The position numbers were made by a program, and so were the translations under genes. Below are positions 17,970 to 58,746 of a stretch of DNA of 64,000 bases, piece after piece. Source of the stretch: Antedon mediterranea (Eukaryota; Animalia; Echinodermata); NCBI RefSeq assembly GCF_964355755.1, contig NC_092678.1:9316422-9380421 (forward strand). The letters run 5' to 3'. The notes under the pieces are model-generated. The model ran no database searches. It saw nothing but the letters and a program-made list of their open reading frames with translations, and was not told where the DNA came from. Every line of letters begins with the position of its first letter. The stretch's first letter is position 1.

Positions 17970-18487
17970 CAAGTGTGCACAGAATAGCCTAAAATCGCAC
18001 TTGGAAACGTGTTAGACCATTTTGAGCATTTCAACAAAACTTTTTCACACAAAACATCAAAGTGTACAGAATAGCTTAATATCGTATTTGGAAACGTTTT
18101 GGACCATTTTTGAGCATTTCGACGAAACTTTTTCATACAAAACATCAAAGTGCACGAAATAGCTTAAAATCGCATTTGAACATGTTTTTGACCATCTTTA
18201 GTATTTCGACATCAAATGTTTATACAAAAACATCAAAGTGCACAGAATCGCTTAAAATCCCATTTTGAAACGTTTTAGACCATTTCAAACATTTCGATAA
18301 AACTTTTTCACACAAAAACATTAAAGAGCAAAAACGTCTTCAAAACGCATTTGGAGACGTTTTAACCATTTTGATTATTTAGACAAAACTTTTTCACACA
18401 AAAACATGAAAGTGCACAAAATAGCTTAAAATCGCATTCGAACATGTTTTAGACCACCTTTAGTATTTCGACAAAACTTTTTCATAT
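17970..18487. repeat. ~88-bp tandem satellite, ~6 diverged units
   Basis: Unit AAAGTGCACAGAATAGCTTAAAATCGCATTTGGAAACGTTTTAGACCATTTT...; same family at 40680-41800. Confidence 0.9.
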
Positions 18488-28880: not shown

Positions 28881-30530
28881 TCTATATATAAATTTACGTA
28901 AGGGCAAAATTCGGTAAATCGTGCCTTACTTCTATAATTTTTACTCGATGGTATATAAAGTTGGTTCGTACTTTCGGTACTGATTTTAACCACCTGATGT
29001 AACCCTGTTTACTAATTAAATTAAGTTAGATAATAAGTTATTGACGGTTAAAACGAATTTAGGTTCCAAGATTTGCCCCAAATAGGGGTGTTTTCCGACC
29101 GTGGTATACACTGTATAATGGATGTCCGTCTTGAAAAATACCCGCCACAAAAATGCGAGGAGGCTTCGCATTTTCCTATCTCCTCCTACGATAATTGTTT
29201 TTAATAGCTGAAAACCGGTTGAACAGCTAGAGTACACCATCATAATGTTGAAGACAGGCCGATTTTCTTTAAAAAATACTATTTTGATACATTTAATATA
29301 CGTTTTTACAAATGTATTGATTTGTGATGAATGGAACATTCCAAATTATTTGGTTTAACCATACAGGTATAGATTTAGATTTATGGGCCCCCTTGGAGAA
29401 TAAACATAAATAGTATTGCTATGCTGTACAATACTGTTAAGGTATTAACCACTTTTGATCGCAATTTGAATCGCAAATTTCTTACTGTGAGTGTTGGTAC
29501 TGTTAGATGTAATATAAAAATATATACAAATAAACTTTATTACTGTGAGTGTGGGTAGGCCCTACTGTTAGATTATAAACATATAATATACAAATAAATA
29601 AACGTTATTACTGACAGTTGCTTCTCAACGTTTGTATTAATTAATAATTTAAAAATATATAAACGTCGTAGTGGTGTATCGTTACATGTACTTTACTATT
29701 TCAATCGACTATGACAGTGAGAGTTTTAACAAAGTACCGTATTAAATCGTAAATGTTTTACTGTATTTAGTGGTATATTATTTATAGGGCTATAAAACAT
29801 TAAAAACAATATTTCGTTACTGAGTGGATAAGAATATATTTTAAAATGTTTCCTCTTTGTACCTATCTTCTTCCCCCATCCCTCAACCCTTAATGTTACA
29901 TACAAAACACAAATTGGGTTTGTTTAAATGAGTCCAAATAAAAAAATTTAAAAAAAAGTTATTACTGACAGTTGCTTCTCAACGTTTGTATTAATTAATA
30001 ATTTAAAAATATATAAACGTCGTAGTGGTGTATCGTTACATGTACTTTACTATTTCAATCGACTATGACAGTGAGAGTTTTAACAAAGTACCGTATTAAA
30101 TCGTAAATGTTTTACTGTATTTAGTGGTATATTATTTATAGGCCTATAAAACATTAAAAACAATATTTCGTTACTGAGTGGATAAGAATATATTTTAAAA
30201 TGTTTCCTCTTTGTACCTATCTTCTTCCCCCATCCCTCAACCCTTAATGTTACATACAAAACACAAATTGGGTTTGTTTAAATGAGTCCAAATAAAAAAA
30301 TTTGACTCATTTTGTTTCTCTCTCGGAAGTAATTCTCAGGGTGCTAATTTTGGTTGACTACATAAATCATTGTGTATATTTATTCGTTTCTGTAAACGAC
30401 AATGTATTATAGTCCTGCAGTACGTACATTTGAAATCTCCATTTTTTTCTCGCTGGAAATACTGTGTATTCGAGAACCATCTGTGGGCACGACCTAGATG
30501 GTACGCGAGCGAAGCGAGCGTGCCATCTAG
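28881..30530 (+). mobile_element. Non-autonomous Helitron
   Basis: A|TCTATATATA start; 3' hairpin GATGGTACGC...GCGTGCCATC then CTAG|T; no TSD. Confidence 0.8.
29604..30303. repeat. Near-identical ~346-bp tandem duplication inside the Helitron
   Basis: 29604-29949 vs 29958-30303. Confidence 0.92.
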
Positions 30531-30667
30531 TATACTTAATTAAAGCATATTATTAAGTTATTAAAACACATTTTCATTAGTTGGGACGCAAATCCGACTA
30601 GGCCTATTCAGAAAAATGTAAACAAATCAAGTGGTAAAACTTACCGTATCCGGATATTCACCCCCTG

Positions 30668-30828
30668 CGCCAGTAAGGCAAAAGGCACACCACAATAAAG
30701 ACGACCGGACACGTAAGACTCAAGTAGAATAAGATCTTTATTCGTCAAAACCAAATATCACAACAATAACATAACAACCAGCGGCCATGATATATGAGTC
30801 AACCCAGATAGGGGGCGCTAGACTGGCG
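30668..30828 (-). repeat. 3' LTR (161 bp)
   Basis: Exact repeat of 35952-36112; preceded on the minus strand by the purine tract AGAAGAG(A)n and a short TGATTA spacer. Confidence 0.95.
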
Positions 30829-30947
30829 TAATCATTTTTTTTTCTCTTCTCATAAAACACAAAAGTCAAAAACAAAACAAAGCAAGCAAAAGCACTCAAA
30901 ATCTACATTGAATGGTCGAAACTTAACTATATAATACGAATGAAACA

Positions 30948-33266
30948 TTATAAATCAAGAACGTAGTCAGAGAGATGACTAGGAAATCTGCGTGAACGTG
31001 TGGATGTGCGATGAGACAACTGTGCTGGAACTTCCATTGGTGATTCTTCCGGGGTCTGTATGGATGATGACTTGTCGTTCACCTCATTAGGAGAGGCAGA
31101 AAGAGTTGACGGTACCTCGGGTGGAGGAAATGGAGACGGATCAACTGTGAAATCAGGTTCTTCATCAGAGGTGTCGCAGTGGCGTTGTGAGGTTGGTGTG
31201 GGAGAATGATGAACGTCAGTCGGTACAGTAAAACACTCTGATTTCTTTACACGATAAGTAGCGCTTCTCAATTGTGAGTGCGTAAACTTTCGGACGTTGC
31301 ACCACTTTCCATCTACAGAAACAACGAGATAGCGATCTCGTGCACAGGTCTTGCGACGATCTGTCCACAGGTAGACTAAATCACCAACCGTAATAGAAAC
31401 GTCAGGTGCTGCACACGCGACGGGTGCCTTAGACTTTTCGCTGTGCGCGTGATTAGAGGCTCTGAGGTGCTGTTGGCTGATAATCAACTTGCGGTCAGAA
31501 ATAGGGATTTGGTCATGAGTGAACTGATCTCGCTGTGTCCACATTTCGCGAGACGACAATCCTCGTGTTCGGATACGGGAGTTAAGACGAGATGTGGCGA
31601 CAGCAAGCACCGTCGGTGAGATGGGACCACCACCAGGCTCTTGCCGAAGTAACTCTTCTGACAATTCGCGTACAGCTTTCTCTCCAACCGGGTTTTTGTT
31701 GATGTTCTTAACTCTGCCAATTTCGATCGAAATCCTATGTTTCAGTAAGACGGGATCGTGGACGAGTGCCATGAAGCCCGGGGCAGGGTCTGTGCGGATG
31801 GTTGCTGAGGGGCCCTCCACGGGGCACATGCCAATGCATAAGCGAATTAAGGTATCACGGAGAGTATCGTGCTTCTCATCGCTGATTAAACACGAAAGGG
31901 TGTAAGACGTCACCGTCTCTCTGACAACAAGAATAAGTTGACGCTCGCGTTTTAGGACATCGGCGGCAAAGGTGACTCCGAGCTTCGACGGAGGATCATC
32001 AGTGGACTGCTCAATTGCAGTGGTGGGTACAGTACGGATCGAGGCACAGTGATGACACGATTCTGACACCTGTTCGATGGTTTTGTCCAAGTCAAGCGCA
32101 AAGAAGTGGCGGCGAACGGATAACTTAAGTTGGTGACTAGTTGGGTGATCTAGCCGCCGGACGTGAAGTGATGTCAGCAGTCCGTTTAATACGGGGCGAG
32201 GGACAATGATACATTCATGCTTAAGTGAGAGTGGTTCAGTGCGGTTGACTACAAGGAGACCATCTCTTCCAATGGAACAACAGTTAAGGTACCGTTTAAT
32301 GTCCCTGACCTTGGTTAACTTTTTTGGTGGACGGGTTCCTTGAATAAGATGAGCTTTTACACGCCGAAGGTCTGGACACTCGGATTGGATGGCTAGCCAA
32401 GCTGGCCGACTGGTGAACGGGAGTTTGGCATCTCCAGTAATGAAATCACGTATCGATGAACGTAGTACCGTTGACTCTATCGCGCCGTTGACAAATGAGC
32501 AAACCTGACAGTTGTCAACTGAGCATGGTGGAGCGTTGCGACTAGCAAAGTCGGATGGGACGTTGGCTGAGCCTGCCAGGTGCCGAATAGAAATCTGGTA
32601 CCTGCTAGCGGTGGACAGGAAGGTGGACACACGGGGACTGACTGAGAATTCTCCCCTGCATAGCTTTTCAAGCGCTTGGACGCATGGCTTACTGTCAGTT
32701 AGGACACATGTGTTATGTCGAGACTGGATAATAAAAGGACTAAAATGTTTAACGGCTGCCGCAATAGCCAAAGCTTCGATCTCGCAGGGTAGCCATGTGA
32801 CCTGACGTGCACGGAGTTTAGCACTAAAAAAGCCGGCTAACTGTGGTTTGGATTCACGAGTAACGTATAAGGTTGCGCCCAGACCATGACTTTTAACAGC
32901 ACCATCCGTAACGATCCACAGTTGGTCATCGGGATGAGGTAAAACTATGACCTTGTTTGAGTCAAGTGCGTTCTGTGCTACTTTAAATGCCTCATGTAAG
33001 GCATCGTACCAATGTATTGTTTCTTTGGACTGTAAGCCGGCTATGGCTTCTTCCAGTGGAGCGATGAGAGATGCGCACTGAGGTAAAACGCGTGCTAACA
33101 CCTTATATGCCCCGATAAAGGAGCGTAAACCTCTTACCGTCGGTGGTGGAGTGCATGCCTTTAACGTTGAAATACGATGAGTATTTGCGCAAATAGAACC
33201 TAGGGACCAGGTCCACCCAAGAATGGTTGTAGTTTGTGGACAAATCACCGTTTTGCTAGCAGACAA
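30948..33266 (-). CDS. pol: Pol C-terminal part: RT thumb, RNase H, integrase (HHCC, DD35E)
   Basis: LRSFIGAY, WIVTDGA, CEIEALA, LTDSKP, PSDFASR; H...H...CHHC; FAADV, IRTDPAPG, NPVGEK. Confidence 0.9.
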   Translation of the reverse strand: MSASKTVICPQTTTILGWTWSLGSICANTHRISTLKACTPPPTVRGLRSFIGAYKVLARVLPQCASLIAPLEEAIAGLQSKETIHWYDALHEAFKVAQNALDSNKVIVLPHPDDQLWIVTDGAVKSHGLGATLYVTRESKPQLAGFFSAKLRARQVTWLPCEIEALAIAAAVKHFSPFIIQSRHNTCVLTDSKPCVQALEKLCRGEFSVSPRVSTFLSTASRYQISIRHLAGSANVPSDFASRNAPPCSVDNCQVCSFVNGAIESTVLRSSIRDFITGDAKLPFTSRPAWLAIQSECPDLRRVKAHLIQGTRPPKKLTKVRDIKRYLNCCSIGRDGLLVVNRTEPLSLKHECIIVPRPVLNGLLTSLHVRRLDHPTSHQLKLSVRRHFFALDLDKTIEQVSESCHHCASIRTVPTTAIEQSTDDPPSKLGVTFAADVLKRERQLILVVRETVTSYTLSCLISDEKHDTLRDTLIRLCIGMCPVEGPSATIRTDPAPGFMALVHDPVLLKHRISIEIGRVKNINKNPVGEKAVRELSEELLRQEPGGGPISPTVLAVATSRLNSRIRTRGLSSREMWTQRDQFTHDQIPISDRKLIISQQHLRASNHAHSEKSKAPVACAAPDVSITVGDLVYLWTDRRKTCARDRYLVVSVDGKWCNVRKFTHSQLRSATYRVKKSECFTVPTDVHHSPTPTSQRHCDTSDEEPDFTVDPSPFPPPEVPSTLSASPNEVNDKSSSIQTPEESPMEVPAQLSHRTSTRSRRFPSHLSDYVLDL

Positions 33267-33330
33267 TCGCAGACCACACTTGTAAATGCATTGGAGTAGA
33301 CGCCGTCAATTGTAAATTAACTCCTCTAAA

Positions 33331-33790
33331 CTAACTGTCCCCTCCACAATAAAGGTCATCCGCAAGCTTTGCTACTACTCCCTCCTTAATCAAATCCCCC
33401 AGTACCCGACAAGTCAGCTCTTCGAGGGCGGTCTCTGAACCAGGCATACCCATGGCACACCGGGCATAAACTCTCACACCTCGAAATGGTGTGGCAACGC
33501 CGCAGTACTTCATAGAAGCGCGAGACAAAGGAATCTGGTAAAAGGCCTTTGTGAGGTCAGTAGTGATTAAGTGCTTCCATTTTGCGATGTTACGTAGAAC
33601 GGAGTTGACATCCGGCATAAGGGAGGGTTGGGGTTTTGCATATCGTCCGACCTCGGCGAATGCTGTAACCAGACGGTAACCACCACTCTCTTTTTTGACA
33701 AGGAAAGATGGGTTAAGATATTCGACTTGGACACCGACGTCCTCGGGGCGAACAAATACTCCCACTTCCTCAAGCTCATCAAATTTGTCC
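33331..33790 (-). pseudogene. pol: Reverse transcriptase core between two frameshifts
   Basis: [41 protein letters not shown]. Confidence 0.88.
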
Positions 33791-35753
33791 TGAGCTCAAC
33801 CAGTTTATCTCTGGAGTACTGAGGAACTCGACCTTTCCTCTGAGGAGGCTGTACAGGTCCCATGTTAACAACAGCCTGGAATGGGCCAACAGAGCCGTTG
33901 TAGGCTTTAATCATAGGATCGAAAACAACATCGTATTCAGTAAGAATGGATTGGAATTGGGATTTCACATTCTGTGGGAGGATATGGTCTGGATCTAGCT
34001 TGACATAATCAGAAAACGCGACAGAGGAAGGAGGCTTACAGGGCTTAGATGGCGACTTTTGGGGAATAGCATTTTCGGCCGACAATGGCACAAAGGTGGG
34101 TCGGACTTGGCAAAAATGTTCGTGTCGTTTGATGACCTGAGGTGTGTCGGTGGAGTTTGGGATACGTACCCTTCCCGCAACACTAGAGACCAAGTCAAAC
34201 TTTGGCCAGGTTCGAGGAAACGTACCCTTACTATGTGGTTCGAGAGCAAACACGTCATCTTGTTGGATGAAGTCAGACGGAATGGCTACCTCGATAAATT
34301 CTCCCGGCCATATAGTGGTCTCCCCTTCAGGAGCACGAAGCACACAAGCACGGCGAACCGTGTTATGGTGAAGGCCCTGTACCTGGGAACCATAGATGTA
34401 CGTGGTACCGTCACCCAATTTGATTTCCCGCTTCGCAGGTCGGAGGGCGATATCATTTAGCTCCATAAAAGGAGTTCCGGCAAGAATGTCGACGTCAAGT
34501 TTTTCGACAACAAGGCCCTCAAATTTGAATTCCCTGTCGTCCCTTGTGAGAATAATTGTGGTTTCGCCTACGACCGAAAGTGGGGAAGATCCGTCAGCCC
34601 GATGGGCAGACTGAGAGCTACTTTTAATGGTGGCGCCAAGGGCAGTGGCAGCAGTAAAGGCAATCATGTTTCCTGTAGCCCCACTGTCTAGTGTGATTCT
34701 GGCTGTGTGGTGTTGGTGAAATGTGTCAAGGTATGGGGACTGGCGAACTTGGACTCGTAAAGCTGTCGACGGTGCACTATTATCACCAGGCTCATCCGAG
34801 GTGTTATCATCATCGATGATGCCAACGATTTGTCGGGCTTTAGCCATGTATTTCCTGTCTGACTCGGGCAAATGAGGGCATTCACTGAGGAAATGCTTGT
34901 CGTCCGATCGGCCGCTCTGTTTACAGATAGGACAGGACTTGTGTTGGGAAAACTGTGGTCGGGAGAATGACTGCCGAGGATTGGAATTTCGGCGTGAATC
35001 AGTGGAGCGGGGTGTGAAAGCTGAAGGAGAGCGAAATGTGGATGACCGAAAAACACGCGCATCATCCGCAGTTCGTAACTCTTCTAAGAGAGAGTCTAAA
35101 GCCTGAGAAATCTCCGGTTTCACTGACGCTAGAGTTCGAGTGCGGAGCTCAGTACCATACCTTTGCTTAACCAACTTAGGAAGGCCTTTGTGGATGAGAG
35201 AGAGCCAAGTAAGAACTACCAAATTTTCCAACGAGGGTGAAAGTTCTTCGTCCTCCTGTATTTGGGCATCATGGTGGGAAATTCCCCCGTCTTGACGTAG
35301 TAAATTATCATGGACAAAAGCAACTAAGCGCTGATAGAGATCTTCCGGCCTTTCATTATCTTGTAAATGTATATCAGCAAAATCAATAAAATGGGCGCCG
35401 GTTGACTGGAATCCATAATGCAGTCGGATAGTTTGCCAAATTTGTGAAAGTGAGGAGGAGCTTTTAACAATGGTATTCCGGGAAATTATAGGGCAAAAAT
35501 TAGCGATCTGACCGAGCATGAGTTCAAGGATAGTGAGTTTTTGTTGGGCGGTATGACGACGTGCAACAGGTACCTCCTCATTGTCGTCAGTTAAGCCGCG
35601 AAGGGGGGATGCCCTGGTTTTGGGACGCCAAACAGAACCATCTAGGAGAAATGGTGAGAGTGTGTAGATAAGGTTTTGCTTCCAGTTTTCGAATGTATTT
35701 ATAGTTTCATTCTTGGTTAAGCACCATTGCTTGGGTGCTCTAGTACCGGCCAT
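33567..35753 (-). CDS. gag: Gag with zinc knuckle plus aspartic protease and RT start; true frame lost near 33790
   Basis: ATG at 35753 ([10 protein letters not shown]); [19 protein letters not shown] knuckle; LDSGATG and DILAGTPF protease motifs. Confidence 0.85.
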
Positions 35754-35941
35754 GGTAGGAAATATATACAGAAGTCTAGGTGTTGTCAGTTGCACGTGTG
35801 AAGCAACAGCCGATCGGCGCCTGTGAAAGCGTAGAGTATGTGATGATATGCTAGCTCGATTTGTTGGGCTAGGCCTACTAGATTGGGTAGGCTACTCACC
35901 AGTACTAGTCGAATAATGGTGGGTGGGCTCGTAATCGTATA

Positions 35942-35951
35942 GCTGCCACCA
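35942..35951 (-). promoter_or_regulatory. Putative 10-nt PBS (tRNA-Leu 3' end)
   Basis: Minus strand TGGTGGCAGC immediately after the 5' LTR. Confidence 0.7.
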
Positions 35952-36112
35952 CGCCAGTAAGGCAAAAGGCACACCACAATAAAGACGACCGGACACGTAA
36001 GACTCAAGTAGAATAAGATCTTTATTCGTCAAAACCAAATATCACAACAATAACATAACAACCAGCGGCCATGATATATGAGTCAACCCAGATAGGGGGC
36101 GCTAGACTGGCG
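35952..36112 (-). repeat. 5' LTR (161 bp)
   Basis: Exact repeat of 30668-30828; carries AATAAA on the minus strand. Confidence 0.95.
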
Positions 36113-37413
36113 CTGGACATTTACCCCCCGGAAAACTACCCCCCGGACAACCACCACCTGGACCACTACCCCCTTAGGACAACTACCCCTTTAGGACAAC
36201 TACCCCCCGGACAAATACCCCCGGACAACTGCCCCCTTAGGACAACAACCCCCTTAGGACAACTACCCCCTGGACAACTGCCCACCGGACAATTACCCCC
36301 TAGGAACAATTAACCCCCGGACAATTAACCCCCCCGGACAATTACCCCCCGGACAATTACCCCCTCCCCCCCGGGTAATTAACCCGCGGACAACTACCTC
36401 TGACACAATACTCCCCGTAGGACAACTACTTCCTGGACAATACTCCGAGGGCAAATAATCTTTTAGGACAACTACCTCCGTAGGACAACTAACCCCTGGA
36501 CAACTAGCCCCCGGACAATTACCCCCTAGGAACAATTACCCCTGACAATTACCCTCCGGAGAATTACCCCCCCCCCCCCGGGTAATTACCCCGCGGACAA
36601 CTACCTCTGACACAATACTCCCCGTAGGACAACTATACCTCCTACCTGGACAATACTCCGAGGGCAAATAATCTCTTAGGACAACTACCTCCGTAGGACA
36701 ACTAACCCCTGGACAACTACCACCCAGAAAACTATCCCTTTAGAACAACTACCCCCCGGACGGACAACTACCACCCAGACCATTCAACAACCTGACTCTG
36801 CAACAGTGTATAATAGGAATTAATAACTATATTTTAATTCGTTACTTTGACGAATTACTATTCATTATTGTAAACAAAAGTAAAAGATTGAACATAAATA
36901 TAGCCTGGTATAAACTGAAGATTGTCACACATGATCATAGGATAGTCGAACGTATTATATAGTACTCCCTGTATTTACTGTAAAGACTGGGTTTGCTAAT
37001 AATAATAATAATTTTTGCGTCAGGACAATGCTTCGATAACCACTGGTCTTAAAAGAATTAATTTTTGTCTCAAATTTTTCATATATGTGTTTTTGTACAC
37101 TTGAAGAATAATATCACTTTTGATATTTGACCTCAATGTTCACTCACCGAATAAACGGCGATCTTTAAATAAATTCCCCTCAAATAAACGGTGACCATGT
37201 CACTCCCATGAAACATCATATGGAATAATCGGCGTCTATTTCCATTAGATTATACCCCCTCCCATTTAATAAACAACTTTCTTCCAATAAATGTCCACCT
37301 AAAAACCACCTAAACAATAAACAGCCCAGGCCGTTTTTTCAATAAATACGGTACTTTAAATCTAGCACATCTAGGGTCTAGCGTGCTGTTAAACAGAATA
37401 ATCGGTTAAAAAC

Positions 37414-37838
37414 GGGTGTTTCAAACTAGAGACCCGAGACCAGAGACCCGAGACCCAATACGAAAAGGGAGACCCACGTACGAAAAGGGAGACCCCACTA
37501 TACGAAAAGGGAGACCCCACTATACGACGAAAAGGGAGACCCTAATATACGAAAAGGGAGACCTAAATATACGAAAAGGAAGACCCAATTATACGAAAAG
37601 GGAGACCCAAATATACAAAATGGGAGACCCAAATATACGAAAAGGGAGACCCACTATAAGAAAAGGGAGACCCCACTATAAGAAAAGGGAGACCCCACTA
37701 TACGAAAAGAGAGACCAAACTATACGAAAAGGGAGACCCTAATATACGAAAAGGGAGACCCAAATATATCTTTATACCCTTTTCGTATTGGGTCTCGTGT
37801 CAGGTCTCTGGTCTCGGGTCTCTAGTTTCGAAACACCC
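37414..37838. mobile_element. MULE-type MITE with 9-bp TSD and internal ~22-23-bp minisatellite
   Basis: TIR GGGTGTTTC(G)AAACTAGAGACCCGAGACCAGAGACC; GTTAAAAAC on both flanks; tandem TATACGAAAAGGGAGACCC units. Confidence 0.92.
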
Positions 37839-38974
37839 GTTAAAAACAGATGATTTCATTTTTACAGAAACCGGTCATATATATTTGTCTACTTTTGGAT
37901 TGGGGGGGGGGGGGGAGGGGTAGTTGACCGGGGGGTAGATCCTAAGGGGGTAGTTGTCTAAGGGGGTGGTTGTCCGGGGGATAGTTGTCCGGGGGGTTGT
38001 TATCCTAAAGGGGTAGTTGTCCTAAGGGGGTAGTTGTCCGGGTGGTAAACATCCGGGGGGTAACTGTCTAGGGGGTATGTGTCCTAGACCCTGCAACTTT
38101 TCCGAACCAGTGACTTACGGAGAAAATTAACTTTATCATCTGATTTTTCTCCAAATGAAATCGATTGGCTAACAAAATATACTTATTAGGAGACTTGTTT
38201 ACCAAATTAGAAAAATTATAATATTTGAATATTCAAGATATTATTCTAATTATAACTTCTGTTTTTTTTCAAGTTTTTTTCGCGTGAAGCTTCGTCAAGT
38301 TTTGTAACGTATGAGGGCGCTACACAACTCAATCGAACAAAATAGATGAAAAACGTTCGATTAACAGAATTATCGCGAAGTGGCTTTCCCACTGGTTAGG
38401 GATATTTTGGTTCACTTTTACTGAAGTATTTTGGAAAAAAAATGACCGGAAGTACCAGTTTTAACATTTGACCCATATTTTAAGGAATTGCCATATCTCA
38501 GTAAATAGTTGTCAGAGACAGTTGATTTTGGTGTGAAATTGTTCAGAATATATATGTTACTATTTTAGTTTAATGAAAAATTTCATCCAAAAATGCCAGG
38601 GAGTACGCAGTTTTGCCTTTGACCTTTAAGATGATTACTGTCTATGGTCGATTTCTTCTTTTTTTAAAATTTGAAAATCTTTGAGAACCACAAAGCTAGA
38701 CGGACCAAGGATTACTTAGGTCTGGAGGACAGACATCTTCAGTCCCTTGATAAATCCCCTTCAGTCGTGGTTCGTGCTATGGCAATATTAGTATGAAGCA
38801 TTCCTCAGTTTTAAGGCACTTTTTAAGAGAAATGTAACAACATGAAATTGTTATGCAACAGCAAACACTAACTTTCCAAAAAGAAACTGGGAATGGATTT
38901 CATCAGTACACATTATTATTATTATTATTATTATTGTTGTTTAACATGTTTTAGACCATTTCGATAAAACTCAA

Positions 38975-40679: not shown

Positions 40680-41800
40680 GGCGTTTTAGACCATCGTTAG
40701 TATTTCGACAAATGTTCATACAAAGCATTAAAGTGCACAGAATCGCTCAAAATCGCATTTTGGAACATTTTAGACCACTTCGAGCATTTCGATTAAACTT
40801 TTTCACTCAAAAACATCAAGAGCAAAAAGTCTTCAAATCGCAATTGGAGACGTTTTAAACCATTTTTGGTCATTTCGACAAAACTTTTTCACACAATAAC
40901 ATCAAAGTGCACAAAATAGCTTAAAATCGCATTTGAACATGTTTTAGACCATCTTTAGTATTTCGACAAAAACTTTTTCACATATAAACACCAAAGTACT
41001 TTGAATAGCCTCAGACATTTTAGACCATTTTGTGCATTTCGATGAAACTTGGTCACACAAAACATCGAAGTGCTTAGAATAGCTTCAAATTGCATTTGGA
41101 GACGTTTAGACCATTTTTTTTGCATTTCGGTGAAACTTTTGAAACACAAAATCATTAAAGTGCACAAAATAGCTTAAAAACGCATTTAGAAACGTTTTTA
41201 ACCACTTTGATCATTTCGCCAAAACTATTTCACACAAAAGTACAGAATAGCTTAATATCGTATTTGGAAACGTTTTAGACCATTTTGAGCATTTCGATAA
41301 AACTTTTTCACACAAAATCTTCAAAGTGCATAAAATAGCTTAAAAGCGCATTTGAATATTATGGTTTAGATCATCTTTAGTATCTCGACAAAAATTGTTC
41401 ACACAAAAACATCAAAGTGCACAGAATCGCTTAAAATCGCATTTTGAAACGTTTTAGACCATTTCGAGCATTTCGATCAAACTTTTTCAAACGAAACATC
41501 AAAGTGCTTAGAATAGCCTCAAATCGCATTTGGAGACGTTTTAGATCATTTTGTGCATTTCGATGAAACATACAAAAACAACAAAGTGCTTAAAATCACA
41601 CTTGAAACCGTTTTAGACAATTTTGAGCATTTCGAAAAAATCTTTTCGACACAAAAACAATAAAGTGCACAGAATAGCTTAAAATCGCATTTGGAAACGT
41701 TTTAGACCATTTTTGAGCATTTCGTTCAAACTTTTTCACGCAAAAACATTAAAGAGTAAAAACGTCTTCAACTCGCATTGGAGACGTTTTTAACCATTTT
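40680..41800. repeat. ~88-bp tandem satellite, ~13 diverged units
   Basis: Same unit as 17970-18487. Confidence 0.9.
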
Positions 41801-43972: not shown

Positions 43973-46001
43973 ATGGCAAATGTAGAAATATGTAGTTTGA
44001 ATGTAAGGAACTCGTTTAAGCGTCGGACGGTTTTTAATTGGTTACATGATCATTCTTTTTCCATTTATTTTCTACAAGAAACACACTGCACAAGCGAATT
44101 GGAAAAGCATGGCGAAAATAATGGGGGCACAACATATTATTCAGTAATGGCACATCCAATTCTGCCGGAGTATGTGTACTTTTTAAACCGAATGCTACAT
44201 ACAAATTTGATAATGTTTATCGGGATGACAATGGTAGAATAATCATTGCAAACATGTCAATTAAGGAAAAATCATTTACCATTTGCAAACATTTACGGAC
44301 CCAATAATAATAATGGCAGTAACTTTTTCGAACTTTTATGTGACAAAATTGAGGAATTCGGAAAAAAACCTATTATCATTGGAGGTGATTTTAATACACT
44401 TTTGAATTCGTCTGTCGATAAAAAACATGGCAAGGGACAAACCCATCCAAAATGCACCAAGCTAATTAATAAAGTTATAGACAAATTAGATTTAATTGAT
44501 ATTTAATTAATTATTTACATGGCACTCAAATCACTCCCCACCAATATTTTGTAGAATTGACTATTTTCTTATTTCATACTCTCTATGGGCACACGTAAAC
44601 GACACTGCAATTATATCAGGCTTTAAAACTGACCATTCATTAATATCACTTTCAATAAATGGATTAATACAGAAAAGAGGCCCTGGTTTTTGGAAGCTAA
44701 ACACTAGTTTATTATAGGATCCTAACTACGTAAAAGGATATTATAGAAACAATAAAAACCACCAAGATAGAATGTGCAGAAAATAACCCTAACACTATTT
44801 GGGAAATGACAAAATGTAACCTAAGAAGAACAACAATCAAATTTGCTAGTAAACAAAATAAAATGAAAAAAAAATAACATTAAACAATTACAAAATGAAA
44901 TACAAATTTTAGAAGAGCAATTTTGCGATACAAATGATCAAACACTAAACGAACAAATTAAATTTAAAAAAAAATGAACTTGAACAACTTTATGAATTTA
45001 AAACACGTGGTTCTATGATTATATCAAGAGCCAAATATGTGGAGGAAGGTGAAAAAAATACGAAATACTTCCTAAATTTAGAACGTGGAAATTATAATTT
45101 AAAAAAAAATTACAAAACTTATTACTGAGAACGGTGAAATTACCGATCCAAAACTATTGGAAAATAAACTTCATATTAAATGAAGAAAATTTTTTTACAA
45201 AGCATTGTACAATTCTGAAGAAAATAACGACCTACAACACGCCTTTCTTAAACAAAGATAAAACAAAATGTGAACTCCCATTCTCCGGAAAAGATTATTT
45301 TGAGGCCCTAAATGAAATGGATAACAATAAAACACCAGGAACCGATGGTCTCTCAGCTGAATTTTACAAATGTTTTTGGACTGAAATTAGCCAAACCCTA
45401 ACAAATTCATTCAAATACTCCTTTCAAAGAGGAAGTCTTTCTATTTCACAAAGGCGTGGGGTAATATCATTGATTCTCAAAAAAGACAAATCGTCAATGT
45501 TGTTAAACAAGGCCAACAGCCATAAGTCGCGTGATAAAACGCATAGTGATACCGGACCGACAGACCGACCGACCGACATACCGACATAGTGAGCTATAGA
45601 GTCGCGTCCACGCGACTAAAAACTGGCGTCCCATCTCATTACTGAACGTCGATTATAAGATCATTTCCAAGACCATTGCGACACGACTAAAAGGATTATT
45701 ACCATCTGTGATTAGCCCTGATAAAACTGGATTCCTTAAGGGACGATACATTGGCGAGAATATAAAACTGCTCTTTGACATTATTGAACATGCACAAAGA
45801 AATAATCTTCCGACGAATATACTTTTTTTCGTAGATTTTGAAAAAGCATTCGATAAAATAAGATGGGACTTTGTTTACTATGCACTGGAACAATTTGGAT
45901 TTGAAAATAATTGTATAAATTGGATAAAACTTCTCTATAATGATATTTTTAGTTGTGTTATTAATAACGGATTTTCTTCTGAATTTTTTAGTCTTAGTCG
46001 T
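43973..46001 (+). pseudogene. L1/Tx1 ORF2 5' part: endonuclease and RT N-terminus
   Basis: SLNVR, LQETH, NIYGPN, GGDFN, RIDY, TDH, KTPGTDG, NWRPISLLNVDYK, VDFEKAFD. Confidence 0.88.
45506..45618 (-). mobile_element. Minimal HINE/DINE-1-like element (~112 bp) inserted in the L1 RT
   Basis: Minus strand: AGTCGCGT/ACGCGACT hairpin, (GTCG)n microsatellite, second ACGCGACT, small stem-loop, CTTGTT end; inserted in an A/T run. Confidence 0.75.
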
Positions 46002-46476
46002 TGTTATGTATGTGCATCGCACCTTGATACCTTGATATGTAAATTAGGCTAGTCACGATTTGTTGTAGTCACTGTTCATTGTATGAGAGCGGTGCACTAT
46101 AGGCGATACGTTGTATTAACGTTGTTGTACACCTTCAATGCTCCGTGTGGAGACATAATCATAGATAAGTGAGCCCTAGTATCAGGTATTTACATTATAT
46201 AATTTGTATTTATTATTTACTGATGAATTAGTTAGGTTTGATAGACATAATGATGATAGTATGCCCATGTTAACGGCGAATTATGTGTGATAAGCCGTAG
46301 TATACATCAGGTACGTGCTTAATGGCGCCGTTTCAATTCTTTCTCTGTTTGTTTTGTTTTAGTTTACCGGATGATCGGATGAGTAGAAATAAAGTGAGCA
46401 AGTATAGCTCAAGAAAGAGAAGCTATTCTTCTGTGGTTTTGTCCGCGTTTAAACTGCGGGGGTTCCATGCAGAACA
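46002..46476 (+). repeat. BEL/Pao 5' LTR
   Basis: Direct repeat of 53109-53583. Confidence 0.95.
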
Positions 46477-46532
46477 GTAAACTGATATTACTGCGGTTTA
46501 ACAAGGCATCGTAGTACTGTGCTTGTTCCGCC

Positions 46533-49500
46533 ATGTCAGATACAGGAGCAGCTAACCCTGAGAGACGGGAAAGCAGAGGTGAAGAGCCGGATGATGCTCA
46601 TAAAAGAGAAAGAACTCGGACTGAAAAAGGAAGAGAATATAAGTTAGAGTTAAAAGAAAAAGAGTTTAACGGTTGCGTTAAACATGTCAAGAAAGCCATA
46701 GCAACTGTCCAACATTTGATTGCTCAGTCTGTGGATATTCATGTAATCCAAACGGAAATTGCAAAAATGGTCACAGTTACAGGAACGCTTGGTGACATTC
46801 AAGCAGATATGTATGAGGTATCGAGTGTAGAGAGACGAAAAGAATTGTATGATCGTTATGATTATTACGATAGGATCGTATTTGAAACCAGACAATCTGC
46901 AAATGTAAAATTCAAGGAGTTGTTAAGTATGGAAGAAGAGCAATTGTCAAGTAGAGCTAGCAGAGCAAGTAGACATTCTGTTCGTTCGACAGTTAGTTCT
47001 AGCAAGTCTTCTGTAAAACAAAGCAAATATGAGTTAGCAGAGGCTGGAGCAGCAATTAAAGTGGAATTTTCGTTTATGGAGAAAGAACGTCAAATAGAGG
47101 AGAAAAGACTACAACAGGAAAGATTGGCTAAAGAGTTAAAGTTACAGAAAGATTTGGCAAAAACATGGCGAAGATGAGCGTCTGTCTGAAAGCAGAAGAA
47201 GAAGATTATTTTTCTGTTGAGCAGGTAGTTGAAGGATTACCCGGAAAAGATAAACAACACGACATGAAACGATTTCTTAATGATGTGTATTCAAAGGTTG
47301 ATACTGGTAAAGATGTTCCGATCGTGGGTGTAGTTAGTGAACCACAATTACCTACTACAGAGATTGTTTTAGATCCTGTTGCCTCCATATATCAACGAGT
47401 TAATATGGAAAACCAAGACATGACTGTTGTTTCGTCTTTGACGCCTCATCCAATTTTATATGGTAGAAAGGTTACGCAACCAGTGTCTGTGAGCTTTGCC
47501 GTTTCTGACTATCCCATTGCGCCTACAAATGTAACAACACAGAGCCATTACAGCACAGTGGATCAATCTGTTATGTACACAACGCCTGCCTTATCGGACC
47601 GTCCAGTGTGTTGTTATCCAAATACCTTGCCACAATCGTTGGTCTCTTCTCACGTTCACGCTAACCCAGTTACATTGTTGTATGGAGTACCTGTATATGG
47701 TCAAGCAGCTGAGATGGTATCGACGAACAATGTTGTAAGTGAATCGCCAATATCAACAGCAAATTTAATGAAACAGATCGTTGATTCTATAAGGCTTCCG
47801 GCATTAAAAGTTTAGGTTTTTAGTGGTGATCCACCTAAGTACCCGATGTGGGAATCTTCTTTTAATGCTCTGATTGAATCAAAGGCAATTAATATTGACG
47901 AGAAGCTGAACTTGTTAAGTCAACATTTGGCTGGTGAGCCAAAGAATATGATCAACAACTACTACTATGGAATTGAAGGAACGATACGGTAATGACAGTG
48001 TCATTGCGAAAGCTTTTACAGACAAGCTCAATGCATGGCCAAATATCCGCGTACGTGATGCTTCCAGCTTGCAGAAATTCTCTGACTTTGTAAATGAAGT
48101 GAATGTTGCGATGCAGAGAATTCCGTATCTAAAAGTGTTGAATTTCCCACAAGAGAATGCGAAACTTGTTACAAAATTGTCATTATATATTGAAGCAAAG
48201 TGGCGTCATATTGTCCAAGAACAGCGGCCTATATTTCCAACGTTTACTAAATTTGCTAAATTCATCAAAACACAAGCACGTGAAGCAAACATACCTGCCT
48301 TTGACCAACGTTACAAGAGTGATGAAGTCAAAGGAACTACAAGGTCAAGACAACAAAGGATACAAAATGAGAATACTTCATCGTTGGCCACAGTAGCGAA
48401 CGATGAAACAAACCAAAGAAAAACTGTGAACTTTGATGGTAAAAAATGTCCGTTTTGTGAAGAGGCTCATCATGTTGACGAATGTGGAAAGTTCAAGAAT
48501 CTAATCCGGAAGGAGAGAAAAGAATTCTTGAGAAAAAATAGGTTATGTTATGGTTGTGGAATGACTGATCAACATCAATTAAACACATGTGAAAACAGAA
48601 TCAAATGTAAAACATGTTCTAACGAACACCTTACTAGCCTACACTTTGACAGGAGGCTAGTGCCTACCACTTCTCATCGTACTTTGGTAAACCGACAGAA
48701 TATTGATAATTCAATGGTGGTACCTGTATGGGTCCGAAAGAAAAATGATGTTTCGAATGAGATTCTTCAGTATTGTATTATGGATCCACAAAGCAATAGC
48801 AGTTTTATTTCAGATGATCTGTTTAATCAACTTCAAGTTTATGGGCATGCAACTCAACTCTCACTGTCTACGATGCTAGAAGCAAACGTGATGATACCTA
48901 GTAGGAAAATTCATGATTTGGAAGTGTTGAGTTTTGACAGAAAAGAAATGGTTCCTCTATCGAGTGTTTACAAGAGACCAGATTCCAATAGGAAGATCAC
49001 AAATACCCAGACAGCAAGATGCGAATAAATTCTCACATTTACAGCGCATTGCTAATCTGATTGTACCATACTTACCAGACGTAAAAGTTGGGATCCTTAT
49101 TGGTAACGATATACCCCGATGTTTATCATGCTATAGTAACTAAGTATATCAAAAAATGAAAAGGTCAAAAAATTGTCATTTTTCGAAATTTACCTTGTAC
49201 TCGAGCAATAAGACCACGTGAGATTGTGGCTGGAGATGAAAACGATCCTTATGGCCAACGTTCCATTCTGGGATGGGGAATAATTGGAAATGTTAGCAAA
49301 ACTTTCAAAAATTTATCTGATTCCCATAAGCAATCTTCTAGAAATCCAGGCTGCGTTGACACAGTCAAACATCCTAAAAACAGACTTACTCATGCTACCA
49401 AGGTGAAAGAAATAATCAGCATGCAACAGGTTAGGGAGATGTTTGAGATGGATTTTGTAGAGCATGTATCAACAAAAAAGGGATATTCTGTGGAAGATCA

Positions 49501-52500
49501 TAGATTTATTTCCATACTTTCCAGTAAAAATGTCAAGAGAAATGATGGTCATTATGAGATGCCATTGCCGATGTGTCGTGATGATGTACGATTTCCAAAC
49601 AATCGTTTAGCAGCCGTGAGACGGGCTTTGCAGCTTAAGAGAAAGTTTAAAAGAAATTCAACATTTAAAGAACACTATATAGCCTTTATGAATGGTATAC
49701 TTGCAGGCTATGCAGAAAAGGTACCTGAATCTGAGTACGGCATAACCGATGGTAGTGTTAATTACATACCGCATTCAGGCGTGTACCATCCAAAAAAAAA
49801 CAACGAATGAAATAAGAGTTGTGTTCGACTGTTCAGCGAAATACGAAGGCGTCTGTTTAAATGATTACCTACTTCAGGGTCCAGATTTAATGAATGGTCC
49901 GATTGGTATTCTATGTCGGTTCCGGAAAGAAGAGGTTGCCATCATGGCCGATATAAAAGGGATGTTCCATCAATTTTATGTAACTCCCAAAGATCGAGAC
50001 AAACTACGGTTCTTGTGGTGGGATGGTAGTGACTTTGAACAAAACATTGTGAAATATCGTATGAAAGTTCATTTGTTTGGTGCTAAAAGCTCTCCCGGGT
50101 GTGCAAACTTTGGCTTGAAGCGAGCTGCCGACGACGGAGAAGGAACGTTTGGTGAAATTGCAGCCAATTTCATTTGAGATGACTTTTATGTAGACGACGG
50201 TTTAAAGTCACTGCCTACTATTCAGCAGGCTATCGAACTTGTCAAGAGCAGCACGGAACTTTGTGCATCAGCTGGCTTGGTGCTACACAAATGGATGTCA
50301 AATAAAAGAGCTGTTCCAGAAGCAATTCCTGAAGAGCAAAGAGCTAAGGGTCTGAAGACGTTAGACATCAAGACCGATCCGCTACCAATTGAACGTGCAT
50401 TGGGTGTCACTTGGTGCGTGGAAGCAGATACTTTTCAATTTCGAATAGTATTGAAAGATTGTCCTTTGAGTCGAAGAGGCGTTTTATCAACAATTAGCTC
50501 CATATACGATCCACTAGGATTCGCAGCACCTGTTGTCCTCGAAAGAAAGATTATTCTTCAAGAGATGTGCAGAGAAAATGTTGGATGGGATGAACCAATA
50601 CCTTCGTATCTATACTCAAAATGGGAAAAGTGGAGGAAAGAAATCGTTGCGCTTGAGCAATTAAAGATCCAACGTTGTTACAAAACAAGTGATTTTGGAG
50701 AAATCCACTTCGCTTCACTACTTCTCCGATGCGAGTGAGTTTGCGTATGGACAGTGCACATATCTAAGAATAATCAACCGGAATAACAGATGTGCTTGCT
50801 CATTAGTAATTGCGAAAGCCAGAGTTAAGAAGGGTGTACACAATTCCACGTCTTGAATTATCTGCTGCAGTTATCTCAGCTAGAATGAGCAAATTCGTCA
50901 AAGAAGAATTAAACTACGACCATCATAAAGTGAACGAATTCTTCTGGACTGATAGTCAAGTCGTGTTAGGATATATTAACAACGAGGCTAAACGATTCCA
51001 TGTGTTTGTTGCTAACAGAATTCAGCAGATTCACGAATTCAGCTCACGTAGTGATTGGTATTACGTAAACTCCTCATCTAATCCTAGTGATATTGCCAGT
51101 CGTGGAGTCAGTGCCAAGAAATTAATGGAAACTCCTAGTTGGTTTAACGGTCCAGAATTATTTAATCAGGATGGTCCTTTTTAAAACGTGCAAGTGCCTT
51201 TCACTTCAGATGATACAGTTCAAACTGAGATTGTGAATGAAATGAAGAAAGCCACTGTGTTTACTTTGGTGAATAGTGAGATGGATGTGCATCAGTCAAT
51301 TATTACACGATTTGAGCGATTCTCTAGTTGGTTCCAACTCAGACGAGCTATTGCAAATTGTCAACGCCTGAAAGGGTATCTGTTAGCATCTTCTCGTACA
51401 AATGGAAAATGTATACCGCCGATGTCTGTAGCAGACCTCAAAGATAGCGAACGATTCATTTGTAAGTGTACACAGGCGGAGTACTTTAAATCAGAAATTG
51501 AAATTCTCCGAAAAGTTAAGCAATCTGGTGAGATTACCGAACGAAATTTGGCACGAATGAGGAAGGTTACTCTAAAACGGACAAGTTGCATGTATAAATT
51601 AGACCCCTTTCTAGATGAGAATGGCATCCTTCGAGTAGGTGGTAGAATCCGGAATGCAATGTTGCCTTTAGATGTCACTAATCCCGTAATCTTGCCAAAG
51701 AAGTGCAAGGTTACTGATCTCATAATACAACATTATCATCAAGAGATTAACCATATGGGTCGGAGCACTACACATAACCGCATTCGCCAGAGTGGATACT
51801 GGATAATTGGAGCATCGTCTGCAGTTTCAACAATTATTCACGGATGTGTAACGTGTCGTAGGCTAAGGGGTGGACTGCAAACACAGAAGATGGCAGATTT
51901 ACCAAAGGATCGTCTGGAAAACCATCCACCTTTTAACTACTGCGCTGTAGATATTTTTGGACCGTTCTATATTCGAGAAAGAAGAAGTCGATTGAAGCGA
52001 TATGGGGTGGTGTTTACATGCATGTATTCAAGGGCAGTTAATACTCTTGAAACAGATTCGTTCTTGAACGCCCTTCGACGGTTTTTAAGTATCCGTGGTC
52101 CTTGTAGGCAGATAAGATCCGATCGTGGTACAAACTTGGAGGGTGCGAGAAATGAATTGAAAAAGGGAATTCAAGAGATGGATGAAACTAAGTTAAACGC
52201 ATTTCTTCTGAAGCAGAATTGCGATTGGATTGAGTTCAAGTTTAACGTTCCTTCTGCCAGTCACATGGGCGGAGTTTGGGAACGACAGATCCGTACTGTA
52301 CGAAGTGCGTTGGCGCTACTATTAACGCAATCTGGTGATCATCTAGATGATGAGTCATTCCGTACTTTTCTATCGGAAGCACAAAATATCGTGAATTCAA
52401 GGCCACTGACAACTAATTTGCCAGAAGTTCAAGTACCAGAACCTCTAACACCTAACCATCTGTTAACGATGAAGGCCAACGTTGTACTTCCACCGCCTGG

Positions 52501-52876
52501 TAATTTTCAAGGAAAAGATTTATATAGCAGGAAAAGATGGCGCAGAGTGCAGTATCTGGCTAACGAATTCTGGCATCGCTGGAAGAAAGAATATCTGCAA
52601 ACGCTTCAACCTAAAAGGAAATGGTGTGATAAGAAAAGAAACATGAAAGTCGGTGACGTTGTGATCGTCAAAGATGAAAGTCTACCTCGCAACGCTTGGA
52701 GGGTTGGAAAAGTCTCAGATGTATATACAAGTGAGGATGGTCTTGTACGAAAAGTCAAGCTAACGATGGCATCTAGGGACCTAGATAATCGTGGAAAAAG
52801 AAGTCAACCACTTTCTACATTGGAGAGACCAATACATAAATTAGTTCTGCTAATGCCAACAGATATAAGTAATTAA
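46533..52876 (+). pseudogene. BEL/Pao gag-pol polyprotein, fragmented by frameshifts and stops
   Basis: Triple Cys-His Gag (CPFC..H..C, CYGC..H..C, CKTC..H..H), protease [25 protein letters not shown], Pao RNase H TIPRLEL/WTDS/NPSD, integrase in the intact 51188-52876 frame. Confidence 0.92.
51188..52876 (+). CDS. BEL/Pao integrase-containing ORF fragment
   Basis: HYH..HMG..CVTC, VDIFGP, SDRGTN, GGVWER, LTPNHLL, RPIHKLV. Confidence 0.85.
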   Translation: MQVPFTSDDTVQTEIVNEMKKATVFTLVNSEMDVHQSIITRFERFSSWFQLRRAIANCQRLKGYLLASSRTNGKCIPPMSVADLKDSERFICKCTQAEYFKSEIEILRKVKQSGEITERNLARMRKVTLKRTSCMYKLDPFLDENGILRVGGRIRNAMLPLDVTNPVILPKKCKVTDLIIQHYHQEINHMGRSTTHNRIRQSGYWIIGASSAVSTIIHGCVTCRRLRGGLQTQKMADLPKDRLENHPPFNYCAVDIFGPFYIRERRSRLKRYGVVFTCMYSRAVNTLETDSFLNALRRFLSIRGPCRQIRSDRGTNLEGARNELKKGIQEMDETKLNAFLLKQNCDWIEFKFNVPSASHMGGVWERQIRTVRSALALLLTQSGDHLDDESFRTFLSEAQNIVNSRPLTTNLPEVQVPEPLTPNHLLTMKANVVLPPPGNFQGKDLYSRKRWRRVQYLANEFWHRWKKEYLQTLQPKRKWCDKKRNMKVGDVVIVKDESLPRNAWRVGKVSDVYTSEDGLVRKVKLTMASRDLDNRGKRSQPLSTLERPIHKLVLLMPTDISN

Positions 52877-53588: not shown

Positions 53589-54980
53589 GGTTTACGACAA
53601 GGATGCCCTCTATCACCATACCTGTTTATTCTATGTGCGGAAATCCTAGGCAATGCAGTCCGTCAAACAGAAAAAATAGAAGGTATATCCTATAATAACG
53701 TAAACATTAAATTAAGTCAATTTGCTGACGACACGGTATTCTATATAAACGATTCCAATTCAATCAAGCCCACTTTAGACTTTATCCTCCTCAGGGCTTA
53801 AGATAAATTATGAAAAAAGTAATATAATGAGACTGGTCTCATTAAAAAATTCGGATTATAAAATTCCCACCAAACAAAACATAATATGGAATAACGAACC
53901 CATACGATACCTTGGTATAAATTTTTTTAAAGTAATTTAGATAATATATTTGATTTAAATTGTCCACAAAAATCTAAAGATATCGATAAAATACTAAACA
54001 TGTGGAGAAAAAGATCCCTAACCTTATTTGGCAAAATTACTATAATAAAAACACTGGTTCTGCCTATTTTAACGTATCACTTTTCAAACTTACCGGACCC
54101 ACCAAATCACTTCTTCAATAATATACAAAGTAAGATGTTTAATTTTTTATGGAACGGAAAACCTGATAAGATAAAGAGGAAAATCATGACCAACGAATTA
54201 GAAAAGGCAGGGTTGAAGATGCTACATTTTCAAAGTTACTGTCAAGCTCTAAAAGCATGTTGGGTTAAAAGATATCTAGGAAAAAACGATTGTAAATGGA
54301 ATTTTTTTTTTCAAAGCGACCTACATAAATTTGGAAACGACTTTATTTTTTATAGTAACTTTTCAAAATCTTCCGCGATTCTTAAACAGTTCAATGGTTT
54401 TAATAAGGACGTTCTATTAGCTTGGAGCGAGTATAGTTTCAAAGAACCGAGCTGTTTAAGAAATCTTATCACAATCCTTATGGAATAACTCTTATTTTGA
54501 AATCAAGGAATTCATAGCAACCGAATTCCTAACTTAGAAGAATTCGAAGAACGATTCAATTTTAAACCAAATTTTTTATTTTACCATCAAATTGTACACT
54601 CGATTCCAAGGCACTGGAAGCAAATAATATTTGAGAATATCGATACAAACCCATCAAATTTAATAATCGAAAATTCTAAAATAAATAATTTGATGAAAAC
54701 AAAAAGAAGCTGTAAACACTTGTATTCTCATTTCGTTAAAAAAATATGCAACAGTACCAGATAGAATCGAGTCCAGATGGGAAAATGATGAAATTCACAA
54801 CTTTGCATAAATACACAATCAATACGAAACTTAAAAAACTTTCAATATAAATTTATTCACCGTATCATTTATACTAACTCTTTTCTACATAAGATATCAA
54901 TTGTTGAATCACCAATTTGTGAATTTTGTTTAGAAAAAGAACAAACTTTAATACACATGTTCGTGGAATGCAAAGTAATT
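53589..54980 (+). pseudogene. L1/Tx1 ORF2 3' part: RT core and C-terminal zinc knuckle
   Basis: GLRQGCPLSPYLF, QFADD, RYLGI, LTLFGKITIIK, CEFC...HMFVEC. Confidence 0.88.
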
Positions 54981-58546: not shown

Positions 58547-58590
<44 letters not shown>

Positions 58591-58664
58591 AGCATATCTC
58601 TCTATAGCATATCTCTCTCTCGCTGATCTATCTCTTTCGCTGATATCTCTCTCTCTCTCGCTGA

Positions 58665-58746
<82 letters not shown>

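What the first reader, a model, noticed from the sequence alone, without database searches (positions are those of the whole stretch)
30665..36115. LTR retroelement that breaks the TG...CA / 4-6-bp TSD rule: CG...CG ends and a 3-bp TSD
Seen: two identical 161-bp repeats bounded by the 7-bp inverted repeat CGCCAGT/ACTGGCG, with CTG on both outer flanks. Removing the element plus one CTG restores a host minisatellite unit (CCCCTGGACA), which independently fixes the boundaries. Established: retroviral, Gypsy, Copia and BEL integrases almost always process CA-3' ends and make 4-6-bp TSDs. Inference: this DD35E integrase joins CG-3' ends with a 3-bp stagger, i.e. a different intasome geometry. From memory this fits the little-studied Troyka lineage, so the lineage may already be named even though the mechanism is poorly explored.
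Basis: partly seen in the sequence, partly recalled or inferred. Interest (0 to 1): 0.88.

Follow-up and report, generated by a model that had tools for sequence, protein, structure and literature searches.

The report
Troyka retrotransposon copy with CG ends
This is a real, likely recent but frame-broken copy of Troyka, an already described group of jumping genes of aquatic animals whose published hallmarks are exactly these CG ends and 3-base target duplication; how its integrase would make them is still untested.

Summary
Two identical 161-bp LTRs (30668-30828, 35952-36112) end CGCCAGT...ACTGGCG with CTG on both flanks. Contigs from 3 of 4 runs join the two flanks with one CTG. The element (minus strand, 5,445 bp) is a Troyka LTR retrotransposon (= Kuafuortervirus). 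CG...CG ends and 3-bp TSDs are its published signature (Kojima 2025, PMC12440569). It also meets the protein criteria: CX2CX9HX4C knuckle, LADD RT motif, no tether, no GPY/F, DD35E integrase. Exact RT strings occur in published Kuafuortervirus alignments. This copy has two frame breaks in RT. The scan found Troyka before on other DNA. Leads I did not see in the papers read: the PBS abuts the terminal CG in 27 of 27 contexts; RYYR precedes the 3' LTR in 18 of 22; and a near-invariant K-N-x-N-K-N-P loop sits where retroviral integrases have the DNA-end cradle. The integrase mechanism is untested. Interest is low.

The parts
30665..30667 (.). Left target-site duplication CTG
   Evidence: one CTG at the empty site in 3 of 4 runs
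30668..30828 (-). 3' LTR, 161 bp, CGCCAGT...ACTGGCG
   Evidence: other copies end at the same places
30829..30832 (-). RYYR tetranucleotide (ATTA on the minus strand) directly before the 3' LTR
   Evidence: RYYR in 18 of 22 PPT-like contexts of relatives against 95 of 1,721 other contexts
30835..30851 (-). Polypurine tract, 17 purines
30948..33305 (-). Open frame: RT C-terminal part, RNase H, integrase (HHCC; D449, D506, E542 at codons starting 31961, 31790, 31682; C-terminal domain without GPY/F)
   Evidence: model matches integrase cores, e.g. Z 18.1, rmsd 2.2 A over 133 residues with 8fnj_B
33331..33795 (-). RT palm piece in another frame, LADD motif; bounded by two frame breaks near 33790 and 33335-33340
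33790..35753 (-). Gag (first Met at 35753), CX2CX9HX4C knuckle (34878-34934), aspartic protease (LDSG at 34691) and RT N-terminus in one frame
35942..35951 (-). Primer-binding site TGGTGGCAGC, flush against the 5' LTR's terminal CG; matches a tRNA-Leu 3' end (tRNA identity recalled, from no call)
   Evidence: 27 of 27 distinct contexts in relatives have no spacer
35952..36112 (-). 5' LTR, 161 bp, identical to the 3' LTR; AATAAA at LTR position 87
36113..36115 (.). Right target-site duplication CTG
36116..36790 (+). Host 15-bp minisatellite array, part of a multicopy host repeat; the insertion sits in its first unit, whose left part ends at 30664

Best explanation
The element is a Troyka (Kuafuortervirus) LTR retrotransposon copy on the minus strand, inserted into a multicopy host repeat with a 3-bp duplication, likely recently, and broken by two frame shifts in its reverse transcriptase. 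Shown: the boundaries, the TSD, the empty site, the order Gag-knuckle-protease-RT-RNase H-integrase, the motifs and the breaks. Inferred from how LTR elements work: an intact family member makes one Gag-Pol polyprotein and reverse-transcribes its RNA from a tRNA (likely Leu) at a PBS flush with the LTR and from the polypurine tract. The DD35E integrase joins the two CG-3' ends to target strands 3 bp apart, and host repair gives the 3-bp TSD. My preferred guess for the DNA ends is Ty1-like blunt ends with no 3' processing (about 50%), because the PBS has no spacer; trimming of 3 nt (about 30%) or 1 nt (about 20%) is not excluded. The near-invariant loop K533-N-x-N536-K537-N-P539 before catalytic E542 likely does the job of the Tyr-x-Pro-Gln-x-x-Ala cradle of retroviral integrases, and is the best candidate for reading a terminal G and holding the shorter stagger. 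This copy cannot make RT by ordinary translation, so it would need helpers.
For: Ends CGCCA and TGGCG are the majority Troyka ends (573 and 522 of 603 LTRs, Kojima 2025). The 161-bp LTR lies in the published 100-400 bp range. The knuckle is CX2CX9HX4C here; 120 of 120 relatives have X8-10 and none has the canonical X4. The RT motif is LADD, and 110 of 120 relatives have L/I/VADD, as published for Kuafuorterviruses. An 18-residue RT string of this copy occurs 5 times in the Kuafuortervirus supplement; all five places shown are in or beside the Oxygymnocypris, Phoronis and Anabarilius rows. Two shorter strings occur 21 and 11 times. By my hand count, 110 of 130 aligned RT positions equal the published Phoronis sequence. 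The best solved relative, Ty3, is distant (E 2.8e-31 for a 27-sequence profile) but collinear through RT and RNase H, so there is no tether. Relatives are single ORFs of 1,392-1,707 aa at 54-66% identity; the named ones come from abalone and corals.
Against: No tree with labelled Troyka references was built. The empty-site joints have short sides and come from a repeat. Only one related locus had both outer flanks: L004, CAG on both sides, but its 3' LTR is half missing. Six of 120 relatives lacked my RT pattern and 4 had another. GP[YF] occurs in the last 330 aa of 9 of 120 relatives, at offsets -143 and +25 from GDxVY, which I read as off the motif position. The loop equivalence rests on counting back from the catalytic Glu, not on a printed structural alignment, and the model is weakest there (pLDDT 64 over residues 191-200). 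Identical 161-bp LTRs date the insertion only loosely: the body differs from other runs' contigs by about 0.4-0.7% plus indels.
Confidence: 0.96

Rival explanations
1. It is an ordinary Ty3/Gypsy element whose true TG...CA ends and longer TSD were miscalled or have mutated.
For: Domain order is that of Gypsy; Ty3 is the best solved relative; TG precedes the left LTR by way of the CTG flank.
Against: No CA follows the right end, and LTR identity stops at CG on both sides. Flanks of 4-8 bp do not match. The empty site has one CTG. Other copies end at the same bases, and 27 of 27 PBS contexts in relatives follow CG. The knuckle, RT motif and lack of GPY/F fit Troyka.
Confidence: 0.02
2. The element is Troyka, but the 3-bp flank match is chance or an assembly effect within a minisatellite, and the real stagger differs.
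For: A 3-bp match has a chance of about 0.018. The target is a degenerate repeat, and single contigs show skips of 5,445, 5,447 and 5,449. One 4-bp TSD is on record for Troyka.
Against: The commonest joint (7 contigs in 3 runs) skips exactly the element plus 3, with 3 letters fitting either side. 3 bp is the published norm.
Confidence: 0.02
3. Sub-rival on mechanism: the linear DNA carries 3-nt extensions at both ends (YYR before the U3 CG, TGG after the U5 CG) that the integrase trims, instead of being blunt.
For: RYYR precedes the 3' LTR in 18 of 22 PPT-like contexts against 95 of 1,721 others. YYR (CCA 5, TCA 5, TTA 4, TTG 3, CTG 1) mirrors the PBS-side TGG, whose complement is CCA. Di- or trinucleotide processing is the retroviral norm (PMC5329712 passage).
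Against: Ty1 integrates blunt ends with no processing (PMC8487063 passage). RYYR may simply be the RNase H cut signal at the end of the plus-strand primer. A TGG extension would need RNase H to leave the tRNA's CCA attached, which has not been shown.
Confidence: 0.3

Closest known systems
Troyka LTR retrotransposons (Kapitonov and Jurka 2008, seen only as a reference; Kojima 2025, J Gen Virol, PMC12440569; proposed superfamily, possible family Trojicaviridae)
   Same: CGCCA...TGGCG ends, 3-bp TSD, LTR 100-400 bp, Gag-Pol order knuckle-RP-RT-RH-IN, CX2CX8-10HX4C, no tether, no GPY/F, no envelope.
   Different: This copy is frame-broken in RT. Whether its family is one of the 581 catalogued could not be checked, because the supplement is not held. 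I saw no account of the PBS, the PPT or the integrase loop in the main text.
Kuafuorterviruses (Gong and Han 2024, Virus Evol, PMC11673190), stated there to include Troyka
   Same: 5-6 kb length, LADD RT motif, exact RT strings shared with published members. Published elements show the same CG-flush PBS in their printed 5' ends.
   Different: That paper's main text does not discuss the termini or the TSD.
Ty3/Gypsy (Metaviridae)
   Same: Domain order, RNase H type, DD35E integrase, PBS and PPT layout.
   Different: TG...CA ends and 4-6-bp TSDs, CX2CX4HX4C knuckle, YXDD motif, and usually a GPY/F motif.
Retroviral intasomes (PFV, HIV-1, MMTV, RSV)
   Same: Predicted integrase has the same fold (Foldseek E 1e-13 to PFV; VIA Z 17-19). 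A Pro three residues after the second Asp (116 of 120 relatives) matches MMTV Pro125.
   Different: CA-3' ends and 4-6-bp staggers. MMTV Tyr149, Pro151, Gln152 and Ala155 correspond, by counting from the catalytic Glu, to Lys (120 of 120), a variable residue (Pro in 45), Asn (120) and Pro (120).
Ty1/Copia (Pseudoviridae)
   Same: Ty1 integrates blunt ends without 3' processing, a possible model for the flush PBS here.
   Different: Integrase lies before RT in Copia (recalled); ends are TG...CA.

Membership tests
Troyka | 5'-CG...CG-3' LTR termini (mostly CGCCA / TGGCG) | tested here: met
Troyka | 3-bp TSD | tested here: met
   (empty site in 3 of 4 runs, probably paralogous)
Troyka | LTR 100-400 bp, internal part 1,553-7,691 bp, no envelope | tested here: met
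   161 bp and 5,123 bp; no further long ORF in the element
Troyka | Gag knuckle CX2CX8-10HX4C | tested here: met
   CX2CX9HX4C
Troyka | Order RP-RT-RH-IN without a tether domain | tested here: met
Troyka | No GPF/Y motif in the integrase | tested here: met
   none after residue 560 of the 785-aa frame
Troyka | Single Gag-Pol frame (majority) | tested here: inconclusive
   Gag to RT start is one frame, but this copy has two frame breaks in RT; relatives are single ORFs
Troyka / Kuafuortervirus | RT motif IADD, VADD or LADD and close RT similarity to published members | tested here: met
Troyka / Kuafuortervirus | Placement in the Troyka clade of an RT or Pol tree | not tested
   labelled reference sequences could be read but were not available as tool inputs
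Troyka | Aquatic animal host | tested here: inconclusive
   host unnamed; the named relatives are from abalone and corals
Ty3/Gypsy (Metaviridae) | TG...CA termini and 4-6-bp TSD | tested here: not met
Ty3/Gypsy (Metaviridae) | CX2CX4HX4C knuckle and YXDD motif | tested here: not met

The most novel reading that the evidence does not exclude
Troyka integrases process and join DNA ends differently from all studied LTR elements. A near-invariant K-N-x-N-K-N-P loop replaces the retroviral Tyr-x-Pro-Gln cradle to read CG-3' and hold a 3-bp stagger. The mirror pair YYR|CG ... CG|TGG marks symmetric 3-nt extensions, one of them copied from a retained tRNA CCA, that the enzyme trims.
Probability: 0.25. 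Interest if true: 0.5.

Novelty: new member of a known kind. Interest (0 to 1): 0.2.

Why it matters
As a discovery it matters little: the lineage, its CG ends and its 3-bp TSD are published. What stays open is how a DD35E integrase reads CG-3' and cuts 3 bp apart, when the solved intasomes use CA-3' and 4-6 bp and the shortest stagger needs the sharpest bend (PMC9410886 passage). The intact integrase frame here, the conserved loop and the end patterns give concrete starting points for that test. The element is also easy to miss in annotation: Pfam gave no integrase-core hit and only sub-threshold RT and protease hits.

Tried and rejected
No whole genome is held, so copies and solo LTRs could not be tabulated genome-wide. 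No other copy of the LTR ends lies in the window, and no tRNA gene. No RNA holder is listed; this says nothing about expression. The 81 related loci were mostly short-read contigs with collapsed or cut LTRs; only L004 gave both outer flanks, and a candidate end in L064 proved to be chance. A target preference for CWG was considered. The 4 distinct left-flank triplets of this family end in G (biased, since matches to the window's own flank are listed apart). Ten hand-picked flanks of relatives (CAG, CAA, ATG, CTG, TAA, CCA, AAG, GAA, TAA, TTG) do not support CWG, though all end in a purine. The PBS count used a stricter pattern chosen after a looser one: the loose pattern gave 35 distinct contexts, 27 after CG and 8 others that I read as chance matches. 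Kojima's supplement and figures could not be seen and may list this family. Searches for a '3-bp target site duplication' integrase paper and for Ty1 end processing with four terms gave 0 papers. The wide structure search was not run; the second-look search was. No complex was predicted, no tree was built, and no host was named.
Full report
Observation. The window holds two identical 161-bp repeats at 30668-30828 and 35952-36112. Their identity stops at the first base beyond each end, the perfect terminal inverted repeat is 7 bp (CGCCAGT/ACTGGCG), and of flank lengths 2-8 only 3 matches, CTG on both sides. A 3-bp match alone would arise by chance about 1.8% of the time, so I looked for the empty site. 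Laying four public runs on 30310-36360 gave the joint 30664->36113, which skips the 5,445-bp element plus 3 with 3 letters fitting either side, in X1 (4 contigs), X5 (1) and X6 (2), and not in X9. The short sides are 20-24 letters, and single contigs show skips of 5,445, 5,447 and 5,449. Summed depth on the flanks is far above that on the element (about 281,000 and 67,000 against about 550 in X1; not a copy number), so the target is a multicopy host repeat and these empty sites are probably paralogues. In a second lay on one LTR, depth drops and contigs turn to other flanks at 30666-30668 and at 30828, so other copies share these ends.

Anatomy. The element reads on the minus strand. The 5' LTR is followed with no spacer by TGGTGGCAGC (35951-35942), a primer-binding site that matches a tRNA-Leu 3' end (recalled, not tested). 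A 17-purine tract (30851-30835) ends 6 bases before the 3' LTR. The coding region falls into three frames. Against three intact relatives it covers one Gag-Pol from Met 35753 to 30951, with frame breaks near 33790 and 33335-33340, both in RT. The best-covered contigs of 4 of 4 runs differ from the window at both places, so the breaks look private to this copy or its assembly. Gag ends in CX2CX9HX4C, the protease has LDSG, RT has LADD, and the integrase has HHCC and D449-D506-E542 with 35 residues between the second D and the E, and no GPY/F. Pfam found RNase H above its cut-off and RT, protease and the integrase zinc finger only below it.

Relatives. A search among longer proteins found 684 hits in 7,980 scored candidates; the best 120 are 1,392-1,707 aa and 54-66% identical, and the named ones come from abalone and corals. 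All 120 have the X8-10 knuckle and none the canonical X4; 110 have L/I/VADD. Among 81 related loci, a strict PBS pattern occurs in 36 loci and 27 distinct contexts, all 27 directly after CG (a looser pattern gave 8 more contexts that I read as chance). RYYR stands directly before the 3' LTR start in 18 of 22 PPT-like contexts, against 95 of 1,721 other contexts. Only L004 had both outer flanks, CAG and CAG, and its 3' LTR is half missing.

What is known. Kojima 2025 (PMC12440569; parts 1-4 of 5 read, which is the whole main text; figures and supplement not seen) defines Troyka by CG...CG termini and 3-bp TSDs. It reports CGCCA in 573 and TGGCG in 522 of 603 LTRs, 256 species, the CX2CX8-10HX4C knuckle, no tether and no GPY/F, and proposes a new superfamily. 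Gong and Han 2024 (PMC11673190; main text, supplement parts 1 and 3 of 29, and a string search showing the first five places of each term) describe the same lineage as Kuafuorterviruses with IADD/VADD/LADD. An 18-residue RT string of this copy occurs 5 times in their supplement, and by hand count 110 of 130 aligned RT positions equal their Phoronis sequence. The 2008 Repbase report was seen only as a reference, and a 2026 meeting report only in passages. Every criterion I could test is met except the single open frame, which this copy has lost; a tree with labelled references was not built. The scan's index lists two earlier Troyka reports on other genomes and two on CG-ended Copia elements of diatoms (unchecked); the latter suggest that CG ends alone are not diagnostic, which is why the protein criteria matter.

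Mechanism. The general path is inferred from other LTR elements: tRNA-primed reverse transcription, then concerted joining of two 3' ends, with the stagger setting the TSD (PMC5329712 passages). The AlphaFold model of the integrase stretch (mean pLDDT 84.9, pTM 0.56) matches retroviral integrases (PFV E 1e-13; core Z 18.1, rmsd 2.2 A over 133 residues). In the MMTV strand-transfer complex, Pro151, Gln152 and Ala155 cradle the viral end, Tyr149 and Pro125 clasp the target, and Arg159 follows the catalytic Glu158 (PMC9410886 section 20). Counting from the catalytic residues, Troyka keeps the Pro125 equivalent (116 of 120) and a basic residue after Glu (119 of 120). It has Lys (120 of 120) for Tyr149, a variable residue for Pro151, Asn (120) for Gln152 and Pro (120) for Ala155. 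This loop is my candidate for reading the terminal G and for the short stagger; the register is assumed and the model is weak there. The flush PBS suggests blunt ends as in Ty1, which needs no 3' processing (PMC8487063 passages). The mirror pair YYR|CG and CG|TGG leaves room for 3-nt trimming. I saw neither point in the two Troyka papers' main texts, and searches listed no biochemical or structural study; Repbase entries and most subscription papers are outside the library.

Verdict. This is a member of a named lineage, and its surprising feature is that lineage's published signature. Interest 0.2; the remaining value lies in the untested integrase mechanism.

Noticed in passing
window 30310-30664 and 36116-36790; 37917-38086: The target is a very abundant host repeat with a 15-bp minisatellite (GGACAACTACCCC-like). 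A second, inverted array of the same unit lies at 37917-38086 (83% over 169 bp). Its kind was not determined.
   Followed up: partly
window 37390-37850: A 22-bp tandem array (14 copies, 37458-37768) flanked by what look by eye like inverted arms (about 37410-37470 and 37780-37840), resembling a fold-back or MITE-type element.
   Followed up: no
window 8369-11237 (+): Non-LTR retrotransposon with endonuclease and RT domains, in several frames (Pfam).
   Followed up: partly
window 46515-52876 (+): BEL/Pao-type LTR element in pieces (DUF1759, DUF5641, integrase zinc finger).
   Followed up: partly
window 57425-58093 (+); 45098-46052 and 53931-54488 (+): An RT fragment that looks Gypsy-like by eye (RVT_1), and LINE-like RT fragments (by eye).
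   Followed up: no
window 29595-30303; 17975-18484; 40683-41754; 58293-64000: A 354-bp tandem duplication at 99% identity just left of the element; an 88-89-bp satellite at two places; long CT and GA-rich arrays at the window end.
   Followed up: no
L023:1263-6950; L043: L023 shows a 3' LTR followed again by a PBS, and L043 a 4.5-kb exact repeat; tandem Troyka copies or assembly collapse.
   Followed up: no
L080; L081; proteins P0096, P0116: Troyka sequences filed under a cyanobacterial MAG, a viral-contig collection and Candidatus Thiodiazotropha MAGs; likely animal host DNA carried into those records.
   Followed up: no
flank triplets: The base just 5' of the LTR's first C was a purine in 10 of 10 hand-picked related flanks and G in 4 of 4 distinct sites of this family; a weak target preference is possible, but the samples are small and biased.
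   Followed up: partly
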